From Rhina ancylostomus (Eukaryota): a DNA stretch of 64,000 nucleotides. Both the position numbers and the translations under genes were made by a program. Of the stretch, positions 3,168 to 62,800 are shown one piece after another. The number at the start of each line of letters is the position of its first letter. The first letter of the stretch is position 1. The notes beneath the pieces were generated by a model that was not told the DNA's origin, ran no database searches, and saw only the letters and a list, made by a program, of their open reading frames with translations. Location of the stretch: assembly GCA_030265395.1 (NCBI GenBank), contig JARFYF010000022.1, positions 27,432,531-27,496,530 of the forward strand. Direction: 5' to 3'.

Positions 3168-3395
3168 AGATATACGGCACAGAAACAGCCCTCCAGCCCA
3201 TCAAGTCCTTGCCAAACATCTGCACCAATCCAAAACCAACTCATTTCATTCTCCCCACACTTCCATCAACTCCCATCAGCCACCACCGACTAAGGCCAAT
3301 GAACTCACTGACCCATAGTCCCAGAGGAAACCCACACGGTCACAGGGATTGAACCTGGGTCACTGGAGCTGTGAGGCATCAGCTCTGCAACTGGC
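3168..3395 (-). mobile_element. V-SINE with CR1-type tail (HE1-like), internally deleted
   Basis: gaggaaacccacacggtcacaggg (V-domain), ttgaacctgggtcactggagctgtgaggc (B-box region), and the reverse CR1 tail ggcacagaaacagccctccagccc. Confidence 0.6.
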
Positions 3396-3454
3396 ATATT
3401 CCATCTGGCATGAGCTACACTGGCAGATTATGTAAGGGTGACCTGATAGAGGTG

Positions 3455-3835
3455 TATTCCTGGTCAGATCACGTAGATGCCACGGCCAAGAAAGCTCACA
3501 GACGGCTCTACTTCCTCAGGAGGCTAATGAAATTTGGCACGTCCCCTTCGACACTCACCAACTTTTGTCAATGCACCATAGAAAGCATCCTATCTGGAGG
3601 CATCATGGCTTGGTATGGCAACTGCTCTGCCCAGGACTGCAGAGCATGTCGCGGACACCAGCCTCCCCTCTGTGGACTCTGTCTATACCTCTCGGTAAGC
3701 AGCCAGCATAATCAAAGACCCCACCCACCTGGGTCAGTCTCTCTTCTCACCTCTTCCATCAGGCAGAAGATGCAGGGGCCTGAGGGTACATACCACAAAG
3801 CTCAAGGACAGCTTCTAGCCCACTGTGATAAGACG
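3455..3835 (+). mobile_element. Rex1/Babar LINE ORF2 C-terminal fragment
   Basis: SWSDHVDATAKKAHRRLYFLRRLMKFGTSPSTLTNFCQCTIESILSGGIMAWYGNCSAQD is a characteristic Rex1/Babar post-RT motif; frameshifted afterwards. Confidence 0.85.
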
Positions 3836-6099
3836 CCACACTACCATGCCTGCCTGTTCAGCACATCATAAACACATATCTGAAGACATCCCAACGTACA
3901 CCATAAGGTTCTCCAGAATGACAGCCTGCTTTCCTCCCATCTGTAAGTCCAGGCAGGTCAGAGAAGAGGGGCTCCTAAGTGGTAAGCAAAGTGGTGGATG
4001 ATAAGAGCAAAGTCTGGATGCTCCCACAGGGTTATCCATGCCAAGAGGAAAGCCTGCTCCTTCATGCTTAATATGCAAGAGAAGACCAACATTAATAACC
4101 AGACTTCATTGAACAGATTCAGATGTGTTTCTCCTTTGTAATTATGCTACCCCCCAGGGTAAGAACACTCAAACCAAGACTGAACTCCTGTTATTGCCTT
4201 ATGCATATGAAGGTACAGCAATTTATCATCATTAAATGTTAGAGAGTTTCCTTTTGATGCTTTAAAGCGAGCATAACCATCCATAAATTAGGAATTTTGC
4301 AAGAGATGTTTGCATATCCAAAACTGCACACAAAACAAGACTTTCTACTTATTNNNNNNNNNNNNNNNNNNNNNNNNNNNNNNNNNNNNNNNNNNNNNNN
4401 NNNNNNNNNNNNNNNNNNNNNNNNNNNNNNNNNNNNNNNNNNNNNNNNNNNNNNNNNNNNNNNNNNNNNNNNNNNNNNNNNNNNNNNNNNNNNNNNNNNN
4501 NNNNNNNNNNNNNNNNNNNGGGTGCCTAGAGTAGGCCTGATGCTGCTTATCAGAAGTGGACTCATTCTTGGGTCATTCTCACAGCATCCAGTGGTCACTT
4601 TAAACATGAATGACAAAGCACAAGAACTCAGCCACACTTTTAAATTCAGTTGATGGGTGGACATAGGAGCGGGGAATAGAATGAACAATAGAACAAAAAC
4701 CCTGCTAACCTAAACTGCACTAAAATAAATGTATAGCTCTCTAATAACAGCACTAAGTAGTTAACCTATGGTTATTCAAGTTGTCAAAGGACAGATGCAG
4801 ATTTCAATTGTGATCTTGTGAAAACCTCTTAGTTACTTTGAGCATGCAAGGCTGCCTTTAATGTTTAAATACACAAGTCCTGATTAATAGTCCTATACTA
4901 ACTGAAATCAGGGAGCCCTGAAAGGATATTTTCCACTAAAATACAGCACTGCTAGAGGTGTACTCATCAGTGATGGTATTGCGGCAAGAGAGGCTCTGCC
5001 TCCTGCCAGTGTCTGATTTCAGCATTGTGGTGGATGTGGTAGAACACAGGAACTAAAGCTTCCAAATGAGGCCCTAGAACAGAGATGAGCTGCAAGTGGT
5101 CACTGAGATCCCCTCTTGGCGTGTCTCAAAGAAGTTCAAGATCTTGCAAGAGAGGTCAAGGTTAGCTGTCATCTTGAACTGCATCTAACTTGTGTTGCTT
5201 TCAAACAGCTGCTTTGCTCACTATCAGACCACAGTTCACACATTGGACCTGCATTATGGCCATAATTTCCAGATTCCTGCAGTGCACTTACCTCCTGGAG
5301 TACATCTGCAGGCCCAGTCTTGCTGGTATTCCCTTCTCCCCAACACCAACATGCTGGCATTCACAGCCCACGATGCATTCATCTCTCCAGGTGCCTTCCA
5401 GGCCTCCTCACTACCTTGTCCTGTCTCACCAGTCACACAGAAAGCACAGATCACATGCACCTACAGAAATTTGATCCTGATAACCATGTCATTGTACTAA
5501 CATTGCTAACACCAGAGCAATCTTTAAGTAACAATTACCATTTAAAATTCTCTGGGATTGTGGCCAATGTATTGCAAGTAGTGCATTCAACACACATTAT
5601 TAATATCTACAATAGTCCAAAGCTAATGGTTTAGTTAAATGATGAGAATGGGTGAATTAAGCTTATGTTTGTCTAAATTCAGTCAAGATGGTTGTTTCAT
5701 TTGCCCTTCATTTCCAAGTTGTAATATGTCAGCTTGTTATTTTTGTTCTCAATGCAAAATTGTGATTTGATACCAACCACCTAATCAGTACATCCTGGGG
5801 CAGCTATTTAATACTATTGTAGTCTGATTTATCAGATTAATTGGTTGGAAAATGTCATTTTGACCTGACAAAATAAATCCCCCCTTTTTTTTGCGGATAA
5901 GAATAACTGGGATGACAGTGACTCTTGATCACAAGAGCCTTTAAAATACTGAGCAGAAGGCAACAATATGTACAGCTGACAATTACAAGATAATGAATGG
6001 ACAGAGCTTTAACAAAACTCAGTACATTTTCTGACTGGCCTTTGATTTACTTTTTTCATCTCTTTTTACTTAAAATGTTCCTGTTGCAATTTTCCCACT

Positions 6100-18875: not shown

Positions 18876-19070
18876 AATACAAGAGAATGCAGATGCTGGA
18901 ATCTGGAGCAAAAGTCTAACAGCTGAAGAGACTCATTGGGTCAAGCCGCATCAATGGAAGCAAAAGGATAGTCGACGTTTCAGGATGAAACCCTGCATCA
19001 GCACTGAGTGTAGAGGGAAGGTAACCCGTCTAAAGGTGTGAGAGGGAGAGGTGAGGGGATGAGGGGTAGA
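18876..19070 (-). mobile_element. Penelope-like 3' tail with a variant hammerhead motif
   Basis: Reverse strand reads cagtgCTGATGCagggtttcatcctGAAAcgTCgacta, then ...ccagattccagcatctgca. Confidence 0.7.
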
Positions 19071-22305: not shown

Positions 22306-23342
22306 TTGTGTTTGTTGATCATTTACGTGCTGTTATTTCACACAAAATTATTTGATGGATTTAATGGATATTCACTATATAACCATGTTGCAACCATTGC
22401 ATTTTGTGTGAACCAGCCAGCCATATGTTGTTTATTTATACAACAGGAATGCATTCTTTTGAATATTCGGCAAGTCAGATCTGTATTTCTTCACAAAATG
22501 GGATGAAATACACTTTTGGCTAAATTTATATTTGAATGGTTGTGGAGAGTGATGAGGCATGAGTTAGAATTTGAACAGAGATTAACGTTTCAACCCATGT
22601 GGTAACGTACCCCTGTTGACAAGAAATGTATTTCTTCTTGCTGAGGTTCAAAGTTGTTCGTATCAAGGTGGATCAATTGGAAGGAAGTAATGGAAGCCAT
22701 CAGAACAAATCAAGTAGGTTTCACCTTAGTAGCACTGTTGATTACAAATTAAATTGTGGCATAATTTTTTTCAGTGACAGACTAATGCTTTTCATGAGTT
22801 ACTGATGTATTTATTTGATGGCCCTCCCCTAAAGTAACTTGTGTAACAAACTACTAATTGCAGTTCTTGATTTTTTAAAATTATTTTCCTCAGAGAAATA
22901 TTTTGAGAAGTTTCAGCTACTTTCTTCTATGTTGTATTGTTTTCTTCAAGATGAGCTGCATCTGATGCTTTTGAATAAATAAATAGCAAATGAGTGATTG
23001 CCTAGGAGTTACAAGATTTTAAAATGCACTGATAGGTCCCATATTTAGGATTGCATTGGAGTGTACTGCAGTGATGTATGAGATAGGTCACTACTCACTT
23101 TGAATGCAGTGAAGTTTTGTAATTGTAACAGTTATTTATAGTTCACTTATTCCGTATGATGCACGTCCATTTTTATTAGAGTCCCTCAGGAAATGAGAAG
23201 TAATAATCATTAAAAATATATCTGATTTAAGCCACAGATAGGAAGTATAAAATTCTGCTTTCTTCCTATTCCTGAAGCATGTTTTTTAATGCATTTTAAG
23301 AGTTTTGCTCCCAATGATGTAAAGGTAGTTTCTCCAAAGTAC

Positions 23343-23343
<1 letters not shown>

Positions 23344-23377
<34 letters not shown>

Positions 23378-23440
23378 TATACGTATATATACATGTGTAT
23401 TTGTGTGTGTATATATATATATATATATAAAAAAAAATAA
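23344..23440. repeat. Compound (TA)n-(CA)n-(TG)n-(TA)n microsatellite
   Basis: Visible directly in the sequence. Confidence 0.9.
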
Positions 23441-38029: not shown

Positions 38030-39437
38030 ATTGAATGTCATCTGGCCCATCAAGCCTGCTTCGCCATTCAATGAGATCATGGCTGATCTGGCCGTGGACT
38101 CAGATCCACCTACCTGCCTTTTCTGCAGAACTCTTAATTCCCCCACTATGCAAAAATCTATCTAACTGTGTCTTAAACATACAATGAGGTAGCCTCTATT
38201 GCTTCCCTGGGTAGAGAATTCCACAGATTCACTACTCTCTGGGTAAAGCAGTTGCTCCTCATCTCTGTCCTAAATCTATTCCTCTGAATCTTGAGGCTAT
38301 GTCCCTTAGTTCTTGTCTCACTTATCAGTGGAAACAACTCTCCTGCCTCTATCTTATCTATCCCTTTCATAATTTTATGTGTTTCTGTAAGATCCCCTCT
38401 CATTCTTCTGAATTCCAGTGAGTATAGTCCCAGGTGACTCAGTCTCTCCTCATAGGCTAACCCCCTCATCTCCAGAATCAACCTGGTGAACCTCCTCTGA
38501 ACCGCCTCCAAGGCCAGTATATCCATCTTCAAGTAAGGAGACCAGAACTGCACGCAGTACTCCAGGTGCGGCCTCACCAGTACCTTGTACAGTTGCAGCA
38601 TAACCTCCCTGCTCTTAAATTCAATCCCTCTAGCAATGAAGGCCAACATTCCATTTGCCTTCTTGATAACCTGTTGCACCTGCAAACCAACCTTTTGCAA
38701 TCCATGCACAAGCACTCCCAAGTCCCTCAGCATAACAGCATGCTGCAATCTTTCACCGTTTAAATAATAATCTGATCTTCTATTTTTCCTACCAAAGTGG
38801 ATGACTTTGCAGTTACCAACATTGTACTCCAGCTGCCAGACCCTTACCCACTCATTTAACCTATCTACATTTCTCTGCAGACTCCCTGCATCCTCTGCAC
38901 AACTTGCTTATCCACTCAATTTAGTGTCATCAGCAAACTTGGATATGCTGTACTGGGCCCCCTCTTCCAAATCTTTAATGTATATCGTGAACAGCTGTCG
39001 GCTCAGCACCGACCCCTGCGGTACCCTGCTCACCACTGATTGCCAACCAGAGAAACGCCCATTTATCCCAACTCTCTGCCTTCTATAGGTTAGCCAATCC
39101 TCTGTCCAAGCTAATACATTACCCCCAGCTCCATGCATCCTGACGTATGGATGTCTTTTTTGTGGCACCTTATCTAACACCTTCTGGAAATCCAAGCACA
39201 CAACATCCACCTGTTCCTCTAACCACTGTGCTCATTATATCCTTAAAGAACTCCAGGAAGTTTGTCAAACAGGACCTGCCCTTCCTGGATCCATGCTGCT
39301 TCTGCCCAATGGAACCACTTCTATCCACATGTCTTCCTTAATGATAGCTTCAAGCATTTTCCCAACTACAGATGTTGAGCTAACTGGCCTATAGTTATCT
39401 GTCTTTTGTCTACATCCTTTTTTAAACAGTGGCGTGA
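38030..39437 (-). mobile_element. 5'-truncated CR1 LINE, reverse transcriptase to 3' UTR, frameshifted
   Basis: ORFs read LDFQKVLDKVP, VPQGSVL..LFTIYIKDL, SKFADDTKL, RDLGV, LYKVLVRPHLEYCVQFWSP, LEAVQRRFTRLI, FTQRVVNLWNSLP. Confidence 0.95.
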
Positions 39438-39974: not shown

Positions 39975-40508
39975 AGATTCATAGTGTTGGAAACAGGGCC
40001 TTCCTGAGCTAGTCCCAATTGACTGTGTTTGGCTCATTGCCCTTTAAACCTTTCCTATTCATGAATCTTTTCAAATATCTTATAAATATTGTAATCGTAT
40101 CTTCATTAACCACTTCCTTTGGCAGCTTGTTCCATATACCCACCATCCTCTGTGATGGAAAAGTTTGCCCCTCACCCTGGGAAATGTTTCCGACCATCCA
40201 CCTTATCTATGCCCCTCATAATTTTATAGACCTCTCAGACTCCGTCACTCGAGGGAAAAGTCCCAACCTGTCCGGTCTCTCCTTGTAACTCAAGACCTCC
40301 AGTCCAGGCAACATCCTTGTGAATCTTTTCTGTGTCCTCTCTAACTTAATTGCATCCTTCCTCCAGTATGACGACCAGATCTGCACATAATACTCCAAGT
40401 GTGTTCTCACCAACATCTTGTACAGCTGTATCATGACATCCCAACTATTGTACATAATGTTCTGACCACTGAGGGCAAGGATGCCATACACCTTCACCAC
40501 CCTGTCTA
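39975..40508 (-). mobile_element. CR1 3' fragment
   Basis: LYKMLVRTHLEYYVQIWS..LERTQKRFTRMLPGLE..SYKER and QRMVGIWNKLP. Confidence 0.9.
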
Positions 40509-42059
40509 CTAATGGGTTGGAGCCTTCCCAGGAACTTGCCAGTTTCTTCAGTTGAGAATTCTGCTGAGAATTTCAAAGACGTAAGAAGGTGAATCTTCAG
40601 GGAAGCTAAGAACAGCAGCCTGAAACCCTGCTTGACAAAAGGAAATCCCTGGACAGCCTCTGACTAGTATTGAAAGGTCCTCCATTAACTAGACAGATTC
40701 CCAGAGGAACTTGGTCTCAAACCACATGTCACTGCCTCCAGGCAGAAATTGGACGTTCCTTCCCCTCAAGCCCTAACAAGAATAAAATTCCAAAAACCCT
40801 ATAAAAACCATTACAGACAACTAAATGATATCTCTCTGTACCCTCATCCCACTCCAGCCAGCTTTAAGAGAGGAAAGAACTCGTCTGAGAGTGGGGCAAT
40901 TGCACTGCTATATGGACAGTACTGTTCTAAAGCACATGGTACTCCGACATAGCTATTTGCTGTTAAAACCATGTAGTCATTTTGTCATCCTCCTGACTTA
41001 TGTGACACTGTAGGAAATGACAAAAAAAAAGTTCTAATTTCCAGCATCAACCTGCCCCTTTCCCATCCCTATCTTACTGTTATTAGACCACATAAAGGTA
41101 AATCCATCCATAATAATAGATAACATAACTCATTGACAACAATACATGAAGCACATTTCTTAGAAGTTATTATACCAATGTTTAGAGCATGTTGTTGTAT
41201 TCTGCTGACCTTTCTAACTGAAAAGTCAGTTCAGCATCTCAAGGGAATTTCCAGACAAGCACATTTCCTGGAATCACCATAAAACGTGTCTGAAATATTT
41301 CTCTTGAAGCTTAAGTATTGCATGACAACAAATGCAATGCCTGATGTAACTTAAACAAGCTTAGTTTGACTTAGCTTAAATATGTTGGTTGGTACAGTTT
41401 TGCAGGTTTTGCTGCTCCTGCACCTGGGTACATTAAATTCCCTCATGTAGACATTCAAAGCTTCCTCTAGAAATGCTTCACATCCTAAACTGGTCGACAT
41501 AGTCCTCTTTTCTGGACCTTTGAACCAGGAGGTATGTGGCACAGGAAGGTCTCTCCATCACCATGGATCTGAGGCATCTGGCACTCAAGCTCAAACCTTC
41601 CATCTATGCTGTTTATTAAAATTATCTCATAGCTTTAACTGGCTCAATACTAACATTTCAGCTTTGTGTATCTATCACCTAGGGCTAATATTTAAATTGC
41701 ACATTAGTTGATGGCTCACATTTGAGCATTTTGCTCAGTACTACTATTAAATTAGCATTTGATGTTGTCAGAATCTAAGGCAACTACATAATATAACCTG
41801 ATCAAATATTTACTCCTGAGTACCTTACCTAAACCATTTCTAGTCATTATTCATGTATGCTGGTTACTGGGAAATTGAGTATTGAGCAAATGAAGAAAAA
41901 CCTCAGATGCCTCACTGTGGATAGATTGGCAGCTATCAACTAATTTGTAGTTCTAATATTACTAGGTATGCCTTGATTCATGCAACATTCTGTTGCATAA
42001 TGTTCCAATATAGATGATACTCTTATTAAATAAGTTGATGGTTCTTCTCATATCTGTAT

Positions 42060-42986: not shown

Positions 42987-43210
42987 TAGACACAAGAGAT
43001 TCTGCAGGTGCTGGAATCTGCAGCAACACACACAAAATATTGGAGGAAATCAGCAGGTCAGGCAGCATCTATGAAGGGAAATAAACAGTTGACATTTCAG
43101 TTGAGACCCTTCATTATGTCCTAATGAAGGGCCTCGACCCAAAACGTCGACTGTTTATTTCCTTCCATAGATGCTGCCTGACCTGCTGAGTTCCTCCAGC
43201 ATTTTGTGTG
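42987..43210. mobile_element. Palindromic Penelope-tail element with a 13-bp target-site duplication
   Basis: Arms 43028-43116 and 43122-43211 are reverse complements around a tgtcc loop. TAATTTCTTACCC flanks both sides (42974-42986 and 43211-43223). Confidence 0.85.
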
Positions 43211-43377
43211 TAATTTCTTACCCCATGTTTTACACAAGACAAGATACTTTGGGACATCAGAATTACTTTTGTCAATTNNNNNNNNNNNNNNNNNNNNNNN
43301 NNNNNNNNNNNNNNNNNNNNNNNNNNNNNNNNNNNNNNNNNNNNNNNNNNNNNNNNNNNNNNNNNNNNNNNNNNNNN

Positions 43378-44978: not shown

Positions 44979-45009
44979 GTGACCAGGGACACTGAGGAGA
45001 TAGGTAAGG
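44979..45009 (+). other. DENND2B: 5' UTR part of the DENND2B first coding exon
   Basis: Pyrimidine-rich acceptor tgtccctttcctctgcag ends at 44978; 31 nt separate it from the ATG. Confidence 0.75.
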
Positions 45010-45083
45010 ATGACTGCCAACAAGAATGCCAGCACCAATCATGCAGCTGGAGCATCTAAAGCAGTTTGTGACACAAGCGCCAG
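45010..45083 (+). CDS. DENND2B: First coding exon (CDS part) of DENND2B/ST5 (DENN domain-containing protein 2B, suppression of tumorigenicity 5)
   Basis: ATG at 45010 reads MTANKNASTNHAAGASKAVCDTSA+AG, followed by the donor AG|GTGAGA at 45084 (phase 2). It aligns without gaps to the recalled human ST5 N-terminus (MT)MTANKNSSITHGAGGTKAPRGTLS-R. In-frame TGA and TAG upstream within the exon make this ATG the start. Confidence 0.85.
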
Positions 45084-47344
45084 GTGAGAGACAAGTAATG
45101 TACTGTTACCTCAGCTGCTTAAATTTCTATATCTAAGGAAAACTTCTGCAAAGTTTCTCATGACCCTTTCAAGGTAACTCAGTGAAGTGGTGAAGTGTGT
45201 TAGCCTGACCTCACAGCCTACTCAATTTGTCCTTGACTTGTCACTTTCCATAGGTTCGAACCAGGGCTGCCTTGACAGAACTTAATATTCCCCAATAAAA
45301 ACCAACGTGCACACGCTAACTGAAAAAAGTTGCAGGACCTAAACCACTGTCATCGACATCTGAACAACATACTGACTCAGGCAGCCAAGGCCCAGCACTA
45401 CATGAAGCATCTGTGAATAAAGCAATTTCCAGAGTTGTCATAAGAAAATACAATGAGAACAAAATTTAATCTGAATAAGAAATATCAGTTTCCTCGAAAT
45501 GCAGTAACAAGAAAAATGGAAAGCATCAGCTGTGACTCACTTTACTGAGCTCATACAAACTAAACACTGGCAAAATCCAGTCTCATCAAGAAATTATTGT
45601 TTTTGATACAAATTTGAAAGATAAATGACTGACAATGTGAAGCAGGGTTCATTTCACAGAGCCAAGGTTACCATCCAGCTGAATTTTAAGTGGCTGTCTG
45701 AAAATTTCTGAAGTATGAATCATACACTGAAGGGCATTATTTTAAAGCAGAAATCTATTTTTGACAGTTGCTTTTCTCTTTTAGATTTTAATGCATTTCA
45801 TCAGCAGTAAAGTGAACAATAGGTCAAAAGCCTTGACGGTCCATGCACATTCATGCACAGACTATGAATATGTTTTCACACAACACATTAAGCCCTTTAG
45901 AAATGATGCAGTTTGCTTGGAACACTGCTTAATTCATTGAAGTTAACAAAATAAGAACTACCAGTTGAATGTTTAAAGGGAGCCATAAACAAATGAGAAT
46001 ATAAACCAATAGCTAAAGGTAACAAACTATGAGAAGCCCAAATATCAAATTATTTGGGTCACGACTACATTCTGGAACAAGGGAAGTAATGGAACAATGT
46101 AGAAAATCATAAAGTGGGCACAGACTGGTGCCAAATGTAAAGAATTGGAGACATTGATTTGTGGAATACTCAGTATAAAAAAAACAGTGGATAGAGTCCA
46201 ACTCTTCCAACTCTTGGTGTATTTAGAACAAACCAAAATAGCAGTAACGTGGAGAATAGTGGATTGTTGCTGTAATTGTTATCGAGGGATGTGGGTAATG
46301 TCACAAATATAAAGGCTAAACTCAAACAGTTATTAATTATCATGTGAATTTTGAAATGACTTTAAAGTCTAGTGTGTCTTCTTAGGATATGAACCCTAAG
46401 GTTCAGAGGTCAGGTACTTGCAATGTTTTTCCTCCCCAGCTGCAGTTATGGTGGTGGATCTTAATGCCATTGTAGAGTTGCCATGTGATGATTAGGGCAA
46501 CAACAGTTTTGCTTGAAATGATTCGTTGATGTACAAAAGCTCAAAAGTTGGTATTTTCACTGCCTTTGCAACATTTGTATGAATTCCTGGCATTCAAGCA
46601 GAAAATTATGTTGTACCTGGCTAAATGTAGATTTTTGTAAGTTTTGCACCTAATAAAATTTTCCACACAGAGAGATTAGCAATAGTATCACAGTTGCTGC
46701 AGGTTTAGTGAGTGATGTCAACAGATGGTTACCAGAAAAAATGTAGTACAGCACTAATAGAGTAATTATTAGACCTGACATGAATAAGGCATAAGTACGG
46801 ACAAATTCTTTTTAAAGAATAGATCACAAAATTAAAATGTGGATGTATGGACATTCTGAGCCATTGAGCAGAAAACTTCATAATATACCACCAAACAGTT
46901 CTGTAATGTCTCGACTTTGCCAAATTATTGCTCATAAAAATATTATGCCCTGCAGAAGATCTGTCTTTTAATTATTGATAATAATAAATTACATATTATA
47001 AAGGTCTTTTGTTGTTAAAAATGTACTGAGGAGTTTCAGAAGTGATTAATTCTGTTTGAAGTCTAGTAATTTCTGTTAATAGACAAATACAGGTGCAAGG
47101 AGACACAAACAGAAAATGTGGTAGATAATTGATAATTTAGGATAACTACGTAGTTTGTTTTGGGGGCATTAATTGATGGATGAATGCTCATTAGTTTAAA
47201 GGATAAACATCCCTTTTTAATTTTTAAATGGAGTTTAGCAAGAGGATGATGTGGGGAATCGATCTAACACCTCAATGTGGAGTAGGAAGGAAACAGCACT
47301 TCCTGAGTAAGGAAGGGTTCAAATTACACAAGGGTTCAAATGTT

Positions 47345-51450: not shown

Positions 51451-52035
51451 TGTTGGTGAATGTCCCTTTAAGATAGAGCATAGTGGTGTGTGGCGTGGTT
51501 ACAACAACAGAAGGTAAAAGACGTAATGACGTTTTTGGATCAGTCAGTTGGAATCAGTCTGAAGGAGAGAGAGAGAGACATCAGCCTGCTAGTCTCTATT
51601 GATGGATGAACAACAGTAACTGTGTCTATTGCAACAATCCACATATAGATTTTTGGAGTAATCCAGTGGAGTCCACTTTGCCATTAACCTGTAGAGGGAA
51701 ACAGGTATTTGTGTGGATGGCCACATCTCAGATGCCTTTCGGGGTGGCAGATACTTCGGAACAAAGTAGTGGAGATCACTTTGTTGTTAACCTGTAGAAG
51801 GAAACAGGTATTTGTGTGGACGGCCACGATTCGAGTGCCTTTTGGTGTGTGGAAGATGTGGTGGAGTAGTCACTGCTGAGTAGACACTGAGGTGTCATAT
51901 AGGTTCCATTGCGGAACATTTGGATTTCATAATTACTCTCTACATTTTGTCTTCAGTCAATGGTGGTTGTTGAAGAAGCCTTTACTCACGTTTCACCTTA
52001 TGGCTTGCTGAACTGAACTTTAAGAACCATTTAAC
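51451..52035 (+). mobile_element. Probable LTR fragment (TG-initiated), truncated by a Rex1 insertion
   Basis: Starts TGTTGG, has a (GA)n run, and an internal direct repeat ttaacctgtaga(g/a)ggaaacaggtatttgtgtgga(t/c)ggccac at about 51685 and 51787. No matching right terminus or TSD seen. Confidence 0.45.
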
Positions 52036-52897
52036 GAGGTAGACCGTGAAGTCAAAAGTCCTTCTTATTGTACTAGGGGACGATTCAATAGTCTTATAAC
52101 AGTGGGTTAGAAGCTGTCCTTGAGCCTGGTGGTATGTGCTTTCAGGCTTTCGTATCTTCTGCCCAAAGGGAGGGGGGAGAAGAGAGAATTCCAGGGTGAT
52201 TGGGTTTTTGATTATGTTGGCTGCTTTACCAAGGCAGCGAGAAGTGTAGACAGAGACCATGGAGGGGTAGCTGGTTTCCATGATCTGCTGAGCGGTGTCT
52301 ACAAGTCTCTGCAGTTTCTTGTGGTCATGGGCAGAGCAGTTGCCGTACCAAGCCAGTGATGCACCTGAATAGGATGCTTTCTATGGTGCATCGATAAAAG
52401 TTGGTAAGTGTCAAAGGGGACATTCCAAACCTCTGTAGCCTCCTGATGAGCTTTCTTAACTGTGGCGTCTACGTGGTTGGACAAGGCCAGGCTATAGGTG
52501 ATGTTCACTCCTACGAACTTGAAGCTTTCAATCCTCTTGACCTCAGCACTATTGAAATAAAGAGGAGCATGTGCACTGCACTCCTTTCTGAAGTCAATGA
52601 CCCTCTCTTTTGTTTTGTTGACAACCTGACACCATGTCACTAGGCTCTCTATCTCCTTCCTGTGCTCTGACTTATCATTATTTGAGATTCAGCCACTATG
52701 GTGGCGTCATCTGCAAACTTGTAGATGGAGTTAGAGTAGAATCTGGCCATGCAGTTGTGAGTATATATGGAGTAGAGTAGGGGGCTGAGGATGCAGCCTT
52801 CTGGGGCACCAGTGTTGAAAATAATCATGCCAGAGGTGTTGCTGCTTAGTGATTGCGGTCTGTTGTTCAGGACATCAGGAATCCAGTTGCAAAGGGT
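52036..52897 (-). mobile_element. Rex1/Babar LINE, RT domain to 3' end, frameshifted
   Basis: LCNWIPDVLNNRPQ, NTGAPEGCILSPLLYSIYTHNC, IYKFADDATIV, KTKERVIDFRK, ESFKFVGVNIT. Confidence 0.9.
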
Positions 52898-56620: not shown

Positions 56621-58269
56621 GCCTAAGAATATCCTCCTTGCTTTCAACAACACCACTAATTTTCATGTTAAGTGAAACAAGTGACTAGTATTCAGATGTA
56701 GGACAACATTTTTTTCTTTTAATCGAAATCATGGTCATTTCATTGGTTGACCACATTCAAATAATATGATGATTCAGTGGCTAAAAATCAGGGTTGTGAT
56801 TGATGATATCATGTTTGGAGATAACTTGGTATCTTCCCTTCAGGTTTTGTACCATTGGTTTGAAAATGTAAATAACTGAGTGCTGATGTACCCATAAGTC
56901 CCTCATTCCAGGCTTGAAGTAGCCTATGGAGATCACCAGGATGTTAGCTGGTCTAAGTATTGACAGCCACATTAAACTACTATGTACCATTTGTTATTTC
57001 TAGCATCATGTTCAAGGGTTCAAGTAGTTTTCTTCAGCAGTAGGTGCAAAATCTAATTTGAATAAGATGGCAGGTTACTGAAATAGATACATTCATTTTA
57101 TTGAGGAAGGAAACTGTGAGACGATTCAGGGCCAAGGACTATTGATGCATGGAGAAAACTTACTGAATGTCTTCCAGGTTAGTACAAGTAGACAGACAAT
57201 GTAAGGTAACACCGTCTTGAAGTCATTAAACATTATTATACTCCTTAGGAGCTTGTCAGAGAATGGTTATAAAATCCTGAAATTACATCTGATACATTTG
57301 TACCAATCATCATTTGACCACACATGCAGATAATCAATAAACCACGAACAAATGATTAACAAAGTTTTGTACTGATCCTTATCTGTGCTTCATGTATAGC
57401 CAGTGATGATGTCACCATATACAATTGTGTAGCAACAAAAAATCTGAATCAATTTAGTTTCAGGATAGCCCCAGTTTTAACTCTGCACCCGTATGGATGA
57501 GTGAGCAGTGTTGCTGATGGTCAGAACTGAGACCTAGGATGTTTCAGCAACCAGATCTCATTTAATTTTTGCTGTTAATTTGCTGCAAGTCTGAAATAAA
57601 AATAAAACATTCAAAAGAAACTCATGAGGCCAGGTGTCATGTGAGATGAAAAAAATGGAGATATTGTTTTAGACTGATGCCTTTTATCAGAGCTGATTTC
57701 TGACTCACTGTGGATTGGAAGTTGAGCAGGAAGTGGTGGAAAATCACTCTGCATGCAGTGCAGCACTTGACACCAGGTAAATGATGGCATTTCCTCCTGG
57801 GCCTCCACCTTCTCTTGGTTCCTTATTATCTCACAAGAAAAGAAATTTGGTGATACTTATTCCAATCTACTTGCACAGACCTCTAGGTCAATTCCCACTC
57901 AGGCTGCCTGGTAAAAATTTCAGCTTTGATGATTTATTGGACACCAACATGCAAATGATTAAGAAGGATCCCTCCCAGCTTTGGAAAGATGCATTTTGCT
58001 TCAATATAAGCATAGAGCCGGATGGGAGTAACGAAATTGACACTAACTTGCAACTTAAGCCAATGGTGTTTATATTTCTCCACCAAGTATCCTGCAATCA
58101 TTTTGGAGAAAATGAAAGAAAGTGTAGAATAGCCGGTGGAGAGATGCAAGTATTGAAGGGGCAAGTTGTGATGTCTGGGTGTGGGTGGGTATATCCACGT
58201 GGACAGTGAGCATTTTTACATTCAGATAATTAAATTAAGGCATGTCTGATCATCAGGAAAAGAGGAAAA

Positions 58270-58455
58270 CTGGAGCAACACACAAAAAGCTGGAATAACT
58301 CAGTGGGTCTGGCAGCATCTATAGATGGAAATGGACAGTTGATGTTTTGGGTCGAAACCCTTCAGTCCTGTTGAAGGGTCTCAACTCAAAATGTTGATAG
58401 TCCATTTCCTCCATAAATGCTACCAGACTCATGGAGTTACTGCAGCTTTTTATGT
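58270..58455. mobile_element. Palindromic Penelope-tail element
   Basis: Arms aaaaagctgg...gggtcgaaacccttca and tgaagggtctcaactc...cagcttttt flank a gtcctgt spacer. Confidence 0.75.
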
Positions 58456-58859
58456 CTTCCCTCAGGATTTGTCCATATGGAATCCAACACCACCCCCTTT
58501 CTGATGGAAACTTGTTTCAGAATTCCACTATGTATCTTCCCGCATCCCCAATGTTTTTCTCCATGAGAAAACCGGAATGGAAGTGAATGGAAGTGCAAAT
58601 TATTAATTCAAATTTGAAACTCCATGCATAGATTGCCACTGTAGACCCTCACAGGCTGTACTCATTCCATGGCTACCATCTTCTCTTTATAGTATTTATT
58701 ATGCTTTGGGATTTTTAATCTTACCTGGCATTGTCAATTTGTGCCTTCTCTTTTTACATATCTAACTCTAAGTGTGAACAAATCAAATTCAACGCATTTA
58801 TTCCTAGCTCTGAAGGAAACAACCTTGATGTGATTAATGATGGCTTTAAAGTTTAAAAG

Positions 58860-59198: not shown

Positions 59199-59298
59199 AA
59201 AAATGATCAGGAGGCAGAGAGGGGAAAAAGTCTTGTATTAGGATTGATCAACACTTGGAAAGTCTAGGATTGATCAAACATGGTCAGCATGGCTTTGT

Positions 59299-59812
59299 AC
59301 ATCGATTTCTTTAACTTCCGGTAACCCCACCCCTTCTTTTTCTTCCACCACCACCACCCCCCCACCCCCACTCCTTTGACTTCCCTTATCCCTGTGGTTC
59401 CCTTCTCCCGTCTTGATGACCTGTTCATCTCCTCTCCTCCCCTCCTCCATCCTTTATTCCATGGTCCACTGCCCTGTCCTACTGGATTCCTCCTCCTTCA
59501 GCCCTTTGCCTCTTCTGCCCATTGCCTCTCAGCTTCTTGCATCTTCTCCCTCTCCCTCACCTACCTACCTTCCCCCTTTCACCTGAACTCACCTATCACC
59601 TGATCTCACCTATCCCCTGCCTGCCTGGGCACCTCCTCCTCCCCGACCTTCTTATTCTGGCTTCTGCCCTCTTCCTTGCCAGTCCTGATGAAGGGTCTCG
59701 GCCTGAAACGTTGACTGTTTGTTTCACTCCATGGATGCACCCTGACCTGCTGAGTCCCCCCAGCACTTTTTTGTGTATTGCACCAGATTCCAGCATCTGC
59801 AGAATTTCTTGT
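59299..59812 (+). mobile_element. Penelope-like element 3' end: last ORF codons, 3' UTR/pLTR, hammerhead motif
   Basis: IDFFNFR* (59301-59324) resembles the recalled C-terminus of chondrichthyan Penelope GIY-YIG ORFs, followed by a C/T-rich UTR, the hammerhead motif and the shared tail. Confidence 0.8.
59680..59717 (+). ncRNA. Minimal type I hammerhead ribozyme motif
   Basis: CAGTC-CTGATGA-AGGgtctcggCCT-GAAA-CG-TT-GACTG: stem I CAGTC/GACTG, core boxes CUGAUGA and GAAA, stem II AGG/CCU, palindromic ACGU in place of stem III, and NUH triplet GUU. Confidence 0.75.
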
Positions 59813-62800
59813 GAATCCAATTTGATTGTTTTGAAGAGGTAACAAAATGTGTTGATGAGAGTTGTGCAGTTCATATGGATTTCAATCAATCCTCTGTCAA
59901 GATCCCACATAGGAGACTGCTCCAAAAGGTTAGAGATCATAGGATCCAAGGGTTAACTGTTATGTTGCTCTGTTGAGACCCTGGGTGAAATATGCAGAAG
60001 TTGTTCCATTCAGACATAGCACATAAGAAATAGAAGGAGAAGTGGGCCAAATGTCTGCTTGGCCGCTCAATTAACTCATGCCTGAGTGATGTGGTAAATG
60101 GAAAGGATTCCATCACCAAGTCAGAATGTCCCTGCTTGTTTAACCCAGGCTCTGCATGTCTTTTTCAGAGCAGACTGATGACTGACTCTGGTTCATTTTA
60201 TCGGTGGTGCACACTGCAACTACTGGAAGTGCCAATTAAGCAAAGCATTACTGTGCTCTCCCGTTATGAAGGCGATATGGATAAAGTTAAGAAGGAAGAA
60301 GGAAAATAGTAACGTTTATGTGTTTCCTATAGGATAGTAGAATTAGATGAAGATAAATAATAATAGTGTCGGAAATAATTGAGGAATAAAGCAATCATGA
60401 TAGATTCAGTATATGATTTAAAAAAAAGGACAAGGAAGAGACCTGGATAAAATCTCTGGGATTAATAAAAAGAAGCATTCAACAAAATGAGTTTTATTGT
60501 GACCAAAACTGGAAGAAAAGGTCAGCTAGGTAAACTTTCAACAAGGAAGTAAACCAAGTAATTACTTCACTGTAAAGTAAAATGTAGATGTGCCAAAGAA
60601 ATATGTTCCAAGGATAAATCTTACTGGAAATTAAAATGGAGGTATGTGATAAAGTCATGGCTAAAATGCTAAATATAATTGTGAAGAATATAGAAATTGT
60701 TTTAGGGAAATGAAAAGGAATATCAGAATAGCTAAAGCAGAATTTTAAAAAAAGTGGGATGATAGATAATATAACATGTAATAGCAAGTGTTTTTAAAGA
60801 AAGACTATTGAAATAGAAGGTTGGACCATTCAGGGATGAAAGAAGGAGCTACATGCTGGAGGATGATAGATATTGAGAGTGAATTGTAAAAGACAGTTTC
60901 CTCAAGAAATCAGTGAAGAGAAATCATGAATTTAAATGACTGCTCAGAGAAAGGATATGTGTGCGATGATTGTGGAACAGAGAATGCTTAAACCAAAGAT
61001 CATTATACTTTATAAAANNNNNNNNNNNNNNNNNNNNNNNNNNNNNNNNNNNNNNNNNNNNNNNNNNNNNNNNNNNNNNNNNNNNNNNNNNNNNNNNNNN
61101 NNNNNNNNNNNNNNNNNGTAAGTGTTTAGTGTGAAGAGCAGGTTGATGGGACTAATTTAGATTAGAGGGATATGGCCATCCCAGACATAATTAGAATAAG
61201 TAACAACCTTTTGTGGTGTAAACTGCAGTTGCCTTTTGTGTAATTCTGCCCATGACTAGAATGAGAAACTTTGACTACGAGGAAAACATTTGTCAGCACT
61301 ATACTATATATCTCAAACATTTAGATTGTGCTTAGTATCAAAGTTTGTATTTTAAAGTGCTTGATTTCCAACTAGAGGGCATTAATTCAAATTATTAACA
61401 GTCATTTAGTGCTTAAACTAATCACTCAGTGGGTTTGTTGGATGAAACACTGTATGTGGTGAAAGATAGAGATAAAATAGAGTTTAAGGACAGAATGCAA
61501 CAGAGTTGTTAACTACTGGACCTCTCAGGCCAAGCAGAGTTAGAGAACCCAAACTGTCTCTGCTGAGGTGAGAGCGGGAGAGGTGATCTCAAAGAGCATA
61601 AACTGATGAAGTAAATGCATGATAATTTTACTGGCAGCCATGCTCACTTAATTTGTCATGTCAGACAGATTATCCAACTGATATCATTTAGCTGCCTAGG
61701 TCACTCTACCTTGTTCCACTCCTTCCTCTGGTTTCAAGAAACTCATTAAAATCTGCCCTTTAACCAAATTTTCTTTTTTAAATTGCTCTGAACCATCTGG
61801 GAACATCACTTTTATTGCCAATGCAAAATGGGTTTTGCCTGTTGGATGAGCTTACTTACATACAGCTATTTGTCCACAGGGTATACTATAGCTATCCCTT
61901 TGAAGCCATGTCTATGGGTGGAGAGTTTAAAGTTCATGTTTCCCTATGACCTCATACTATCAAAAGCAGTGAGAAGCAATCCAGGGCTATGGGTCTGTGT
62001 AGGCAGAGTGCCAAAACATTGAAAAAAAGGCTGCAAAAATTCATTCTCTGTTGCAGAAGTTCCCACTGACAATTCCCACATGGTTCAAGCTCAGGAATTC
62101 CTCGCTTCCTCTTGCCTCAGTTGATCCTGTCATCAGCTGAAGTTCATACTTCTCATTCCAGCTTACCCTGATGGTTTTGTGAACATGAACGTGAGAAGCT
62201 AGTGATGGCTAGCTACCCTGGCCCTTGTAGTAAGGTGGGTAACTGCGTTCAGTTGGAGCGTGGAATGGGGAAGTGGGGAGGGAGGGGTGGGATGGGATGG
62301 GATGGAGAATCTCAAAAAGAGCCAGAAAACATCAGGGAGTTCAAGGTGAATGATTTCAGTGCAGAAAATTAGAGCCGTTGGTTTCTATTCTGTATTTTTT
62401 ACTGAAGCATAAGAGGTAACTATACTAAAAATAGTATGGAAATCCTAGACCCTTGTTTACCAGCTTTGTAAAAACAAAATCCCATAAAGTCGACAGAGTC
62501 TCAATCAGTAAGAACAAGTCATGATTGTTTCCATCTATTGAATTAAGTTCATTCACTATCTTCTTGCTTCTCAAGGATTGATCAAACCATCTGCAGAACT
62601 GTTTGTACTTTCAGACTCTGAAAGATCTCATTACATTCAGGTCAGAATGATCTAAACTGAATGCAATTCCCTCAGGACTTTGTAGCAACCTGCACTCAAG
62701 TTCATTCTTGTTTGGCAAGGTAGTAAATGGCTTGTCTGATGCTTTCCAAATAATAGCTGAAATCAACCAGAGATTGTTATGAAGGAGTGTGATGCAGAAG

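What the first reader, a model, noticed from the sequence alone, without database searches (positions are those of the whole stretch)
59680..59717. Near-intact minimal hammerhead ribozyme in a Penelope tail, sense to DENND2B
Seen: all core nucleotides (CUGAUGA, GAAA, UH) and a 5-bp stem I are present, with stem III reduced to self-complementary ACGU. Two positions look like CpG decay from an ancestral ...GGCCCGAAACGTCGACTG; the ACGTCGAC form survives at 43144 and at 18971 (minus). Known: Penelope-like elements carry minimal hammerheads thought to cleave as dimers. Inference: this copy lies downstream of the DENND2B first coding exon on the same strand, so the intronic pre-mRNA would carry a possible self-cleaving site.
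Basis: partly seen in the sequence, partly recalled or inferred. Interest (0 to 1): 0.7.

Follow-up and report, generated by a model that had tools for sequence, protein, structure and literature searches.

The report
Decayed Penelope hammerhead in DENND2B intron
The self-cutting RNA motif is real and lies in a DENND2B intron on the gene's own strand, but it is one worn copy among thousands left by a Penelope-type jumping gene in this ray genome and likely does not cut the gene's RNA, so it is ordinary.

Summary
59680-59717 is a minimal type I hammerhead with all 11 core bases, a 5-bp stem I and ACGU in place of stem III. It lies sense in the 33.9-kb intron after the first coding exon of DENND2B. 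It belongs to a 515-nt, 5'-truncated end (59299-59813) of a Neptune-like Penelope element; sister copies carry RT and GIY-YIG sequence upstream. Nothing marks this copy as special. Its own 31-mer occurs 22 times in the genome and the CpG-intact form 122 times. Core bases decay as fast as flanks, 5.8% against 4.7-5.1%, and 3 of 45 copies picked blind to the motif are as well kept. Related copies in the gene lie 15 sense, 15 antisense. It has no dimer partner, and private changes are predicted to fold a hairpin over GAAAC. Lone minimal hammerheads did not cleave in published tests. Against my reading: GUU is native to a sister family, so that change alone need not kill it. No RNA data were available. 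The scan reported such elements before, in this genome and others.

The parts
59680..59717 (+). Minimal type I hammerhead motif: stem I 5 bp, core, extra A between positions 9 and 10.1, stem II 4 bp with G.U at both ends, palindromic ACGU, GUU triplet; potential cut 59712/59713
59299..59813 (+). 5'-truncated 3' end (pseudo-LTR) of a Neptune-like Penelope element; 40 of 462 positions outside the motif differ from the family majority
59299..59324 (+). Last codons and stop of the element's RT/GIY-YIG reading frame
   Evidence: sister copies run from the endonuclease frame straight into this sequence
59704..59726 (+). Predicted 7-bp hairpin (59704-59710 with 59720-59726) that hides GAAAC; it rests on changes private to this copy at 59704, 59721 and 59726
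59240..59298 (+). Left part of an older LINE reverse-transcriptase fragment (CR1-type by recall) into which the element inserted
   Evidence: translation; compare the frame at 122481
59814..59950 (+). Right part of the same LINE fragment; about 7 codons of the target are missing and no target duplication is seen
44980..45084 (+). First coding exon of DENND2B/ST5 (ATG 45010); the intron holding the motif runs from 45085 to about 14.9 kb past the window end
58257..58480 (.). Nearest related copies: head-to-head pair; the sense arm (58361-58480) has 2 broken core bases
42993..43213 (.). Head-to-head pair of the same family upstream of the first coding exon; both arms have 2 broken core bases
18888..19032 (-). 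Copy of a sister family with A9->C core

Best explanation
This is the inherited minimal hammerhead motif of a 5'-truncated Penelope-like (likely Neptune-clade) retrotransposon end that sits sense in a DENND2B intron, and it likely decays neutrally without cutting the pre-mRNA. Shown: the anatomy, the link to RT and GIY-YIG coding sequence in sister copies, the copy number and the position in the gene. Inferred: in the active parent, two tandem repeats paired their ACGU palindromes to build stem III and cut the element's own RNA, probably with help from the element's protein. Reverse transcription from the element's 3' end stopped after about 515 nt and left one repeat inside an older LINE fragment. 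With no second motif, no tertiary contacts and a predicted competing hairpin, the intron would be spliced out uncut.
For: Element: RT, endonuclease and a tail 72-84% identical to this one lie in order on one strand in many loci, e.g. L005, L057, L060, L076, L101, L103, L104, L106, L107, L112, L113, L116, L118, L120; translated pieces show a YIDD RT motif, a CX4CxxC linker and a GIY-YIG-like motif; ray homologues score Pfam GIY-YIG at E 5e-4 to 2e-3 in 4 of 6. Abundance: 7,813 first-look candidates; exact counts 122, 22, 292 and 1,160 for four narrow core-intact patterns, controls 0; 67 profile hits in 393 kb around the locus. No sign of selection on copies: non-CpG core 26/447 changed, flanks 173/3701 and 63/1233; 9 of 45 copies have <=2 changes and 3 of 45 are as intact as this one. 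No strand bias in the gene, 15:15. Fold: stems I and II about 0 with flanks of 13-100 nt, against 0.60-0.99 at 13-20 nt for the 5 distinct CpG-intact copies that could be folded. Best partner strand in the intron -5.5 kcal/mol against -14.1 for the local fold. Literature: a single min-HHR showed no detectable cleavage and dimers little (PMC4209133); the Anolis PLE hammerhead did not cleave without protein and no RNA-seq ends were seen at its site (PMC11167929).
Against: It is the only one of the 34 near-complete motifs listed in 424 kb that keeps the whole core plus the palindrome. GUU obeys the NUH rule, and 100 of 100 listed copies of a 1,160-copy sister family carry U17, so U17 is no proof of death. 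G10.1.U11.1 still pairs, and the isolated 38-mer forms stems I and II at 0.8-0.99. The insertion seems shared with a second organism about 3% diverged in the flank, so it has persisted. Pfam scores of the element's own pieces are below the curated cut-offs. Ten of the 45 control copies also helped build the majority sequence. Folding predictions ignore co-transcriptional order and proteins. The abstract-level case of CPEB3 shows that a slow intronic ribozyme can matter.
Confidence: 0.87

Rival explanations
1. The copy is cut occasionally in trans: a transcript of another core-intact copy, or a second DENND2B pre-mRNA, pairs through ACGU, perhaps chaperoned by the element's protein, and nicks the intron at a low rate with little or no effect on the gene.
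For: Core and palindrome intact; at least several hundred core-intact partners exist in the genome; protein-assisted cleavage was shown for an Anolis PLE (PMC11167929); U17 is native in sister families.
Against: The ACGU duplex is worth only -1.7 kcal/mol and a trans half-site -7.9, against -14.1 for the local fold. No intact reading frame was found among the loci examined. Even tandem dimers cleave poorly.
Confidence: 0.09
2. The motif has been domesticated as a regulator of DENND2B splicing or isoform choice, like the intronic hammerheads of amniote RECK or the CPEB3 ribozyme.
For: Sense orientation; best kept motif in 424 kb; insertion apparently shared with a second organism; precedents exist (PMC6155905; PMC10919898).
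Against: It lacks stem III, which a lone ribozyme needs; it carries two CpG changes, one in the conserved G10.1-C11.1 pair; its state matches neutral decay; orientation in the gene is 15:15; the host copy is 8.7% diverged like its sisters.
Confidence: 0.03
3. The resemblance to a hammerhead is accidental and the family never used it.
For: No Rfam hit; the 38-mer folds no better than shuffles; only one two-sided stem change was seen between families.
Against: Across five sister families the differences fall at N7, loop II, N17 and outer stem I, with a C-G to U-A swap in stem I and U.G to U-A in stem II, while the core stays put except A9->C in one family. The extra base between 9 and 10.1, G10.1-C11.1 and the 15.2-16.2 palindrome match the published consensus, and the motif sits in the terminal repeat as published.
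Confidence: 0.01

Closest known systems
Minimal hammerheads (min-HHR) of metazoan Penelope-like elements (Cervera and De la Pena 2014, PMC4209133; parts 1-2 of 4 read)
   Same: Type I, no helix III, palindromic 15.2-16.2, extra base between 9 and 10.1, short helix I, in the terminal repeat, mostly as scattered single motifs of truncated elements.
   Different: This copy has U at 11.1 and U17 from CpG decay and a short 4-bp helix II. No cartilaginous fish is named in the parts read; the supplements were not seen and may list one.
Neptune-clade endonuclease-bearing PLEs (Craig et al. 2021, PMC8557442; passages read)
   Same: C-terminal GIY-YIG, CX2-5CxxC linker between RT and endonuclease, strong 5' truncation, inverted 5'-truncated partners, hammerhead in the pseudo-LTR.
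   Different: No tree was built, so Neptune against Nematis is not settled; this copy is a lone tail with no inverted partner.
Poseidon element PAc of Anolis (Frangieh et al. 2024, PMC11167929; parts 1-2 of 4 read)
   Same: Hammerhead with stems I and II only; sharp shared 3' end downstream of the motif; an ATG lies at the start of stem II.
   Different: Different clade; here the frame from that ATG stops after 21 codons in sister copies and 8 codons in this copy.
Domesticated intronic ribozymes: RECK-type hammerheads (PMC6155905, passages) and CPEB3 (PMC10919898, abstract)
   Same: Sense position in an intron of a protein-coding gene.
   Different: Those are conserved across species and cleave as monomers; this one is a high-copy repeat without stem III and with no sign of conservation beyond neutral.
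Non-LTR retrozymes (bioRxiv 10.64898/2026.07.22.740005; part 1 of 5 and passages read)
   Same: Type I hammerhead, PLE origin, reported in one chondrichthyan genome, about 43% of Xenopus copies in introns.
   Different: Retrozymes are tandem arrays; this is a single copy that still carries the end of the PLE reading frame.

Membership tests
PLE minimal hammerhead | Core C3 U4 G5 A6 N7 G8 A9, G12 A13 A14, A15.1-U16.1, H17 | tested here: met
PLE minimal hammerhead | No helix III; palindromic 15.2-16.2 | tested here: met
   ACGU at 59708-59711
PLE minimal hammerhead | Extra base between positions 9 and 10.1 | tested here: met
   A59692; 98 of 98 family copies
PLE minimal hammerhead | G10.1-C11.1 pair | tested here: inconclusive
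   G.U in this copy; G-C in 66 of 98 family copies, G.U in 24
PLE minimal hammerhead | Stem covariation across families | tested here: inconclusive
   One two-sided swap in stem I (C-G in 65 of 98; U-A in 18 of 31 of an older family) and one one-sided change in stem II; no formal statistic run
PLE minimal hammerhead | Self-cleavage as a dimer | not testable with these tools
   No assay; no RNA run listed
Endonuclease-bearing Penelope-like element | RT followed by C-terminal GIY-YIG, then terminal repeat with the hammerhead | tested here: met
   Order shown in sister copies; Pfam support weak; this copy keeps only the last codons
Endonuclease-bearing Penelope-like element | 5' truncation, inverted partners, shared 3' end | tested here: met
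   (opposite-strand motif in 6 of 44 loci, same-strand in 5 of 44)
Neptune clade | CX2-5CxxC linker and CCHH motif in the endonuclease | tested here: met
   Read by eye in L060, L071 and ray homologues; definition
Neptune clade | RT phylogeny groups with Neptune | not tested
   No reference PLE sequences in session
Domesticated intronic ribozyme | Monomer-competent fold with stable helix III | tested here: not met
Domesticated intronic ribozyme | Conserved at the orthologous site across species | tested here: inconclusive
   Left junction shared with run X2, but contigs break inside the repeat
Non-LTR retrozyme | Tandem array with a hammerhead in each unit | tested here: not met
   Single copy

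The most novel reading that the evidence does not exclude
Ray pre-mRNAs carry hundreds of core-intact, sense, partnerless hammerhead halves like this one, and these are cut in trans when Penelope repeat transcripts (with the element's protein) pair with them through the ACGU palindrome. Transposon activity would then nick host introns genome-wide, DENND2B among them.
Probability: 0.04. Interest if true: 0.65.

Novelty: new member of a known kind. Interest (0 to 1): 0.13.

Why it matters
As it stands it matters little: it adds a ray example to a class described in 2014, and shows that 'near-intact and sense in an intron' is expected by chance when a family has tens of thousands of copies. The family set is of modest use to specialists, because sister lineages vary at U17, A9 and stem I and offer natural variants for asking whether PLE hammerheads must cleave at all. 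If trans cleavage of host introns were shown, it would be a new way for a transposon to act on host RNA.

Tried and rejected
Rfam scan of the window: no hammerhead family at E<=5. Expression and cut ends: no RNA holder listed; both runs are DNA-like contigs, so no evidence either way. Orthologous motif in run X2: contigs break inside the repeat at both stringencies. Full-length intact element: four loci with long 'open frames' gave no stop-free frame of 250 aa once N was excluded. PDB search with an RT piece: 1 chance hit, E 1.3. Pfam on 9 window and locus frames: nothing informative for the element. Protein atlas: unavailable. Luense et al. 2017 on dimer cleavage (PMC5785218): not held; known to me only by its title in reference lists and a review's summary. 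A number for GUU against GUC rates was not found in the passages read; that GUU is slower is recalled. That cut introns can still be spliced (exon tethering) is recalled; one search showed only the reference. A discontinuous hammerhead with the copy 1.3 kb upstream: -1.5 kcal/mol, rejected. Selection for the silencing hairpin: loss of the fold is common, both stems <0.1 in 16 of 35 control copies at 20-nt flanks, so rejected. A loop-II pseudoknot: looked at by eye only; the candidate downstream partner does not change when the loop changes between families. The alignment included a wrong stretch and was not used. Searches for a published chondrichthyan PLE hammerhead gave 1 paper each, neither shown to be on point (passage read; listing only).

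Full report
Observation. It is the only zero-mismatch hit among 34 hits of a loose core pattern in the window. Rfam has no matching hit and the 38-mer folds no better than shuffles, but the genome holds 122 exact copies of the CpG-intact 31-mer and 22 of this copy's own 31-mer, with 0 for the reversed controls. The one at 43144 has lost G5 and G12; the one at 18971 belongs to a sister family with A9->C.

Host gene. An exon at 44980-45084 has AG and GT splice signals and an ATG at 45010. The large exon beyond the window is 90% identical to a ray ST5/DENND2B protein, and the named hits are almost all DENND2B/ST5. tblastn places residues 1-25 at 45010-45084, residues 25-438 at 78936-80177 in extended coordinates, and the rest in order on + up to 225056. 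The motif is therefore sense, 14.6 kb into a 33.9-kb intron. The host is a ray-like cartilaginous fish by this homology.

The element. Homology to other genomic copies starts at 59299 and ends at 59813. The first 26 bases are the last codons of a reading frame that in sister copies continues upstream into an endonuclease and an RT. RT, endonuclease and a tail 72-84% identical to this one lie in order on one strand in at least 14 loci. Translations show YIDD, a CX4CxxC linker and a GIY-YIG-like motif, which fit Neptune as defined in PMC8557442 (passages). Pfam support is weak: E 0.057 and 0.085 for our pieces and 5e-4 to 2e-3 for 4 of 6 ray homologues, all under the cut-off. No tree was built. 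The copy interrupts an older LINE RT fragment, with about 7 codons of the target missing and no duplication (CR1 label recalled). A contig of a second organism, 20 differences in 630 bases, runs about 30 bases into the element, so the insertion appears to predate their split.

Is this copy special? A profile built from 19 sister copies finds 67 related hits in 393 kb of called sequence around the locus. Eight near-complete motifs of the same family in that span extrapolate to roughly 45,000 per genome, a crude figure from one region. For a control I took 58 copies chosen by the sequence upstream or downstream of the motif, dropped 13 whose motif was not fully covered, and scored 45. Non-CpG core bases were changed in 26 of 447 cells (5.8%), flanks in 173 of 3,701 (4.7%) and 63 of 1,233 (5.1%), CpG sites in 101 of 359 (28%). 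So inserted copies lose the core at the neutral rate. Eighteen of 45 keep the core, 9 have at most two changes, and 3 are as intact as this one. Ten of the 45 also helped build the majority, which slightly flatters them. This copy differs at 40 of 462 positions outside the motif, near the high end of the controls. Between the first and last mapped coding exon, related hits lie 15 sense and 15 antisense. It is, however, the only one of the 34 near-complete motifs listed in 424 kb with whole core and palindrome.

Can it cut? A minimal hammerhead needs a second copy to form stem III. A single Schistosoma motif showed no detectable cleavage, and dimers and trimers little (PMC4209133). The Anolis PLE motif cleaved only with protein, and no RNA-seq reads ended at its site (PMC11167929). 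Here the nearest sense copy, 1.3 kb upstream, has two broken core bases. The best of 28 possible partner strands in the intron gives -5.5 kcal/mol, against -14.1 for the local fold. With 13 or more flanking bases, stems I and II drop to about 0 predicted probability, because 59704-59710 pairs with 59720-59726 through three changes private to this copy. CpG-intact copies keep 0.60-0.99 at 13-20 nt of flank, though 2 of 3 testable ones fall to 0.3 or less at 50 nt. Such loss is common among decayed copies (16 of 35), so it needs no special cause. These are equilibrium predictions, not measurements.

Results against my reading. U17 is allowed by the NUH rule, and a sister family with 1,160 pattern matches has U17 in 100 of 100 listed copies. 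An older family also has mostly U17 and U11.1. The two CpG changes therefore need not inactivate the motif; the lack of a partner and the competing fold are the stronger arguments. No RNA run was listed, so nothing here tests expression or cut ends.

Was the motif functional in the parent? Probably. Between five families the changes fall at N7, loop II, N17 and outer stem I, with one C-G to U-A swap in stem I and a U.G to U-A change in stem II; the core is constant except A9->C in 16 of 17 copies of one family. This is thin covariation, one two-sided event, but it agrees with the published consensus.

Mechanism. Shown: anatomy, parent element, copy number, gene position. Inferred: tandem repeats of the active element formed a double hammerhead through ACGU to process the element's RNA; a truncated copy was written into the intron; it has since decayed like its sisters and is spliced out uncut (0.87). 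Rivals: rare trans or protein-assisted nicking (0.09), domestication (0.03), chance likeness (0.01).

Novelty. The class is known from many animals including fishes, and related tandem forms were reported in one chondrichthyan. Two searches found no paper on this family; supplements of PMC4209133 were not seen. The scan's own notes report the same kind of element six times in this genome and in others. Verdict: real, correctly identified, ordinary; interest 0.13.

Noticed in passing
L151-L179 (29 copies picked by the 3' tail): 5' ends cluster at the 5' edge of stem I (within 15 bases in 9 of 29) and none lies at the cleavage bond (+33), so truncation tracks the motif's edge and not its cut site.
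   Followed up: partly
window 42993-43213 and 58257-58480: Head-to-head fold-back pairs joined at the 5' edge of the hammerhead.
   Followed up: partly
L200-L209; G000 pattern search: A sister family with at least 1,160 near-intact copies has N7=A, U17 and only a 3-bp stem I in most copies seen; a natural test of whether GUU minimal hammerheads cleave.
   Followed up: partly
window 18888-19032 (-) and 16 other copies: A sister family carries A9->C in 16 of 17 copies, a change of a normally invariant core base.
   Followed up: partly
window 59240-59950: The element is nested in an older LINE RT fragment with a small target deletion and no duplication.
   Followed up: yes
L014/L015 (G000:C7:74622928-74623128): Two CpG-intact motifs 170 bases apart on one strand, a natural tandem dimer candidate; an N run lies beside them, so it may be an assembly duplication.
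   Followed up: no
proteins P0123, P0124, P0128: Public ray gene models named mucin-2, divergent protein kinase domain 1C and chitinase domain-containing protein 1 contain this element's endonuclease sequence, likely annotation fusions or exonised pieces.
   Followed up: no
window 23330-23433: An AT/CA microsatellite hairpin gives 12 sub-threshold miRNA hits in Rfam; artefact of simple repeats.
   Followed up: no
window 3353-3868, 51985-52688, 38176-38907, 40219-40572: Fragments of other LINE-type retroelements (one scores Pfam ALKBH8_N at 2e-8).
   Followed up: no
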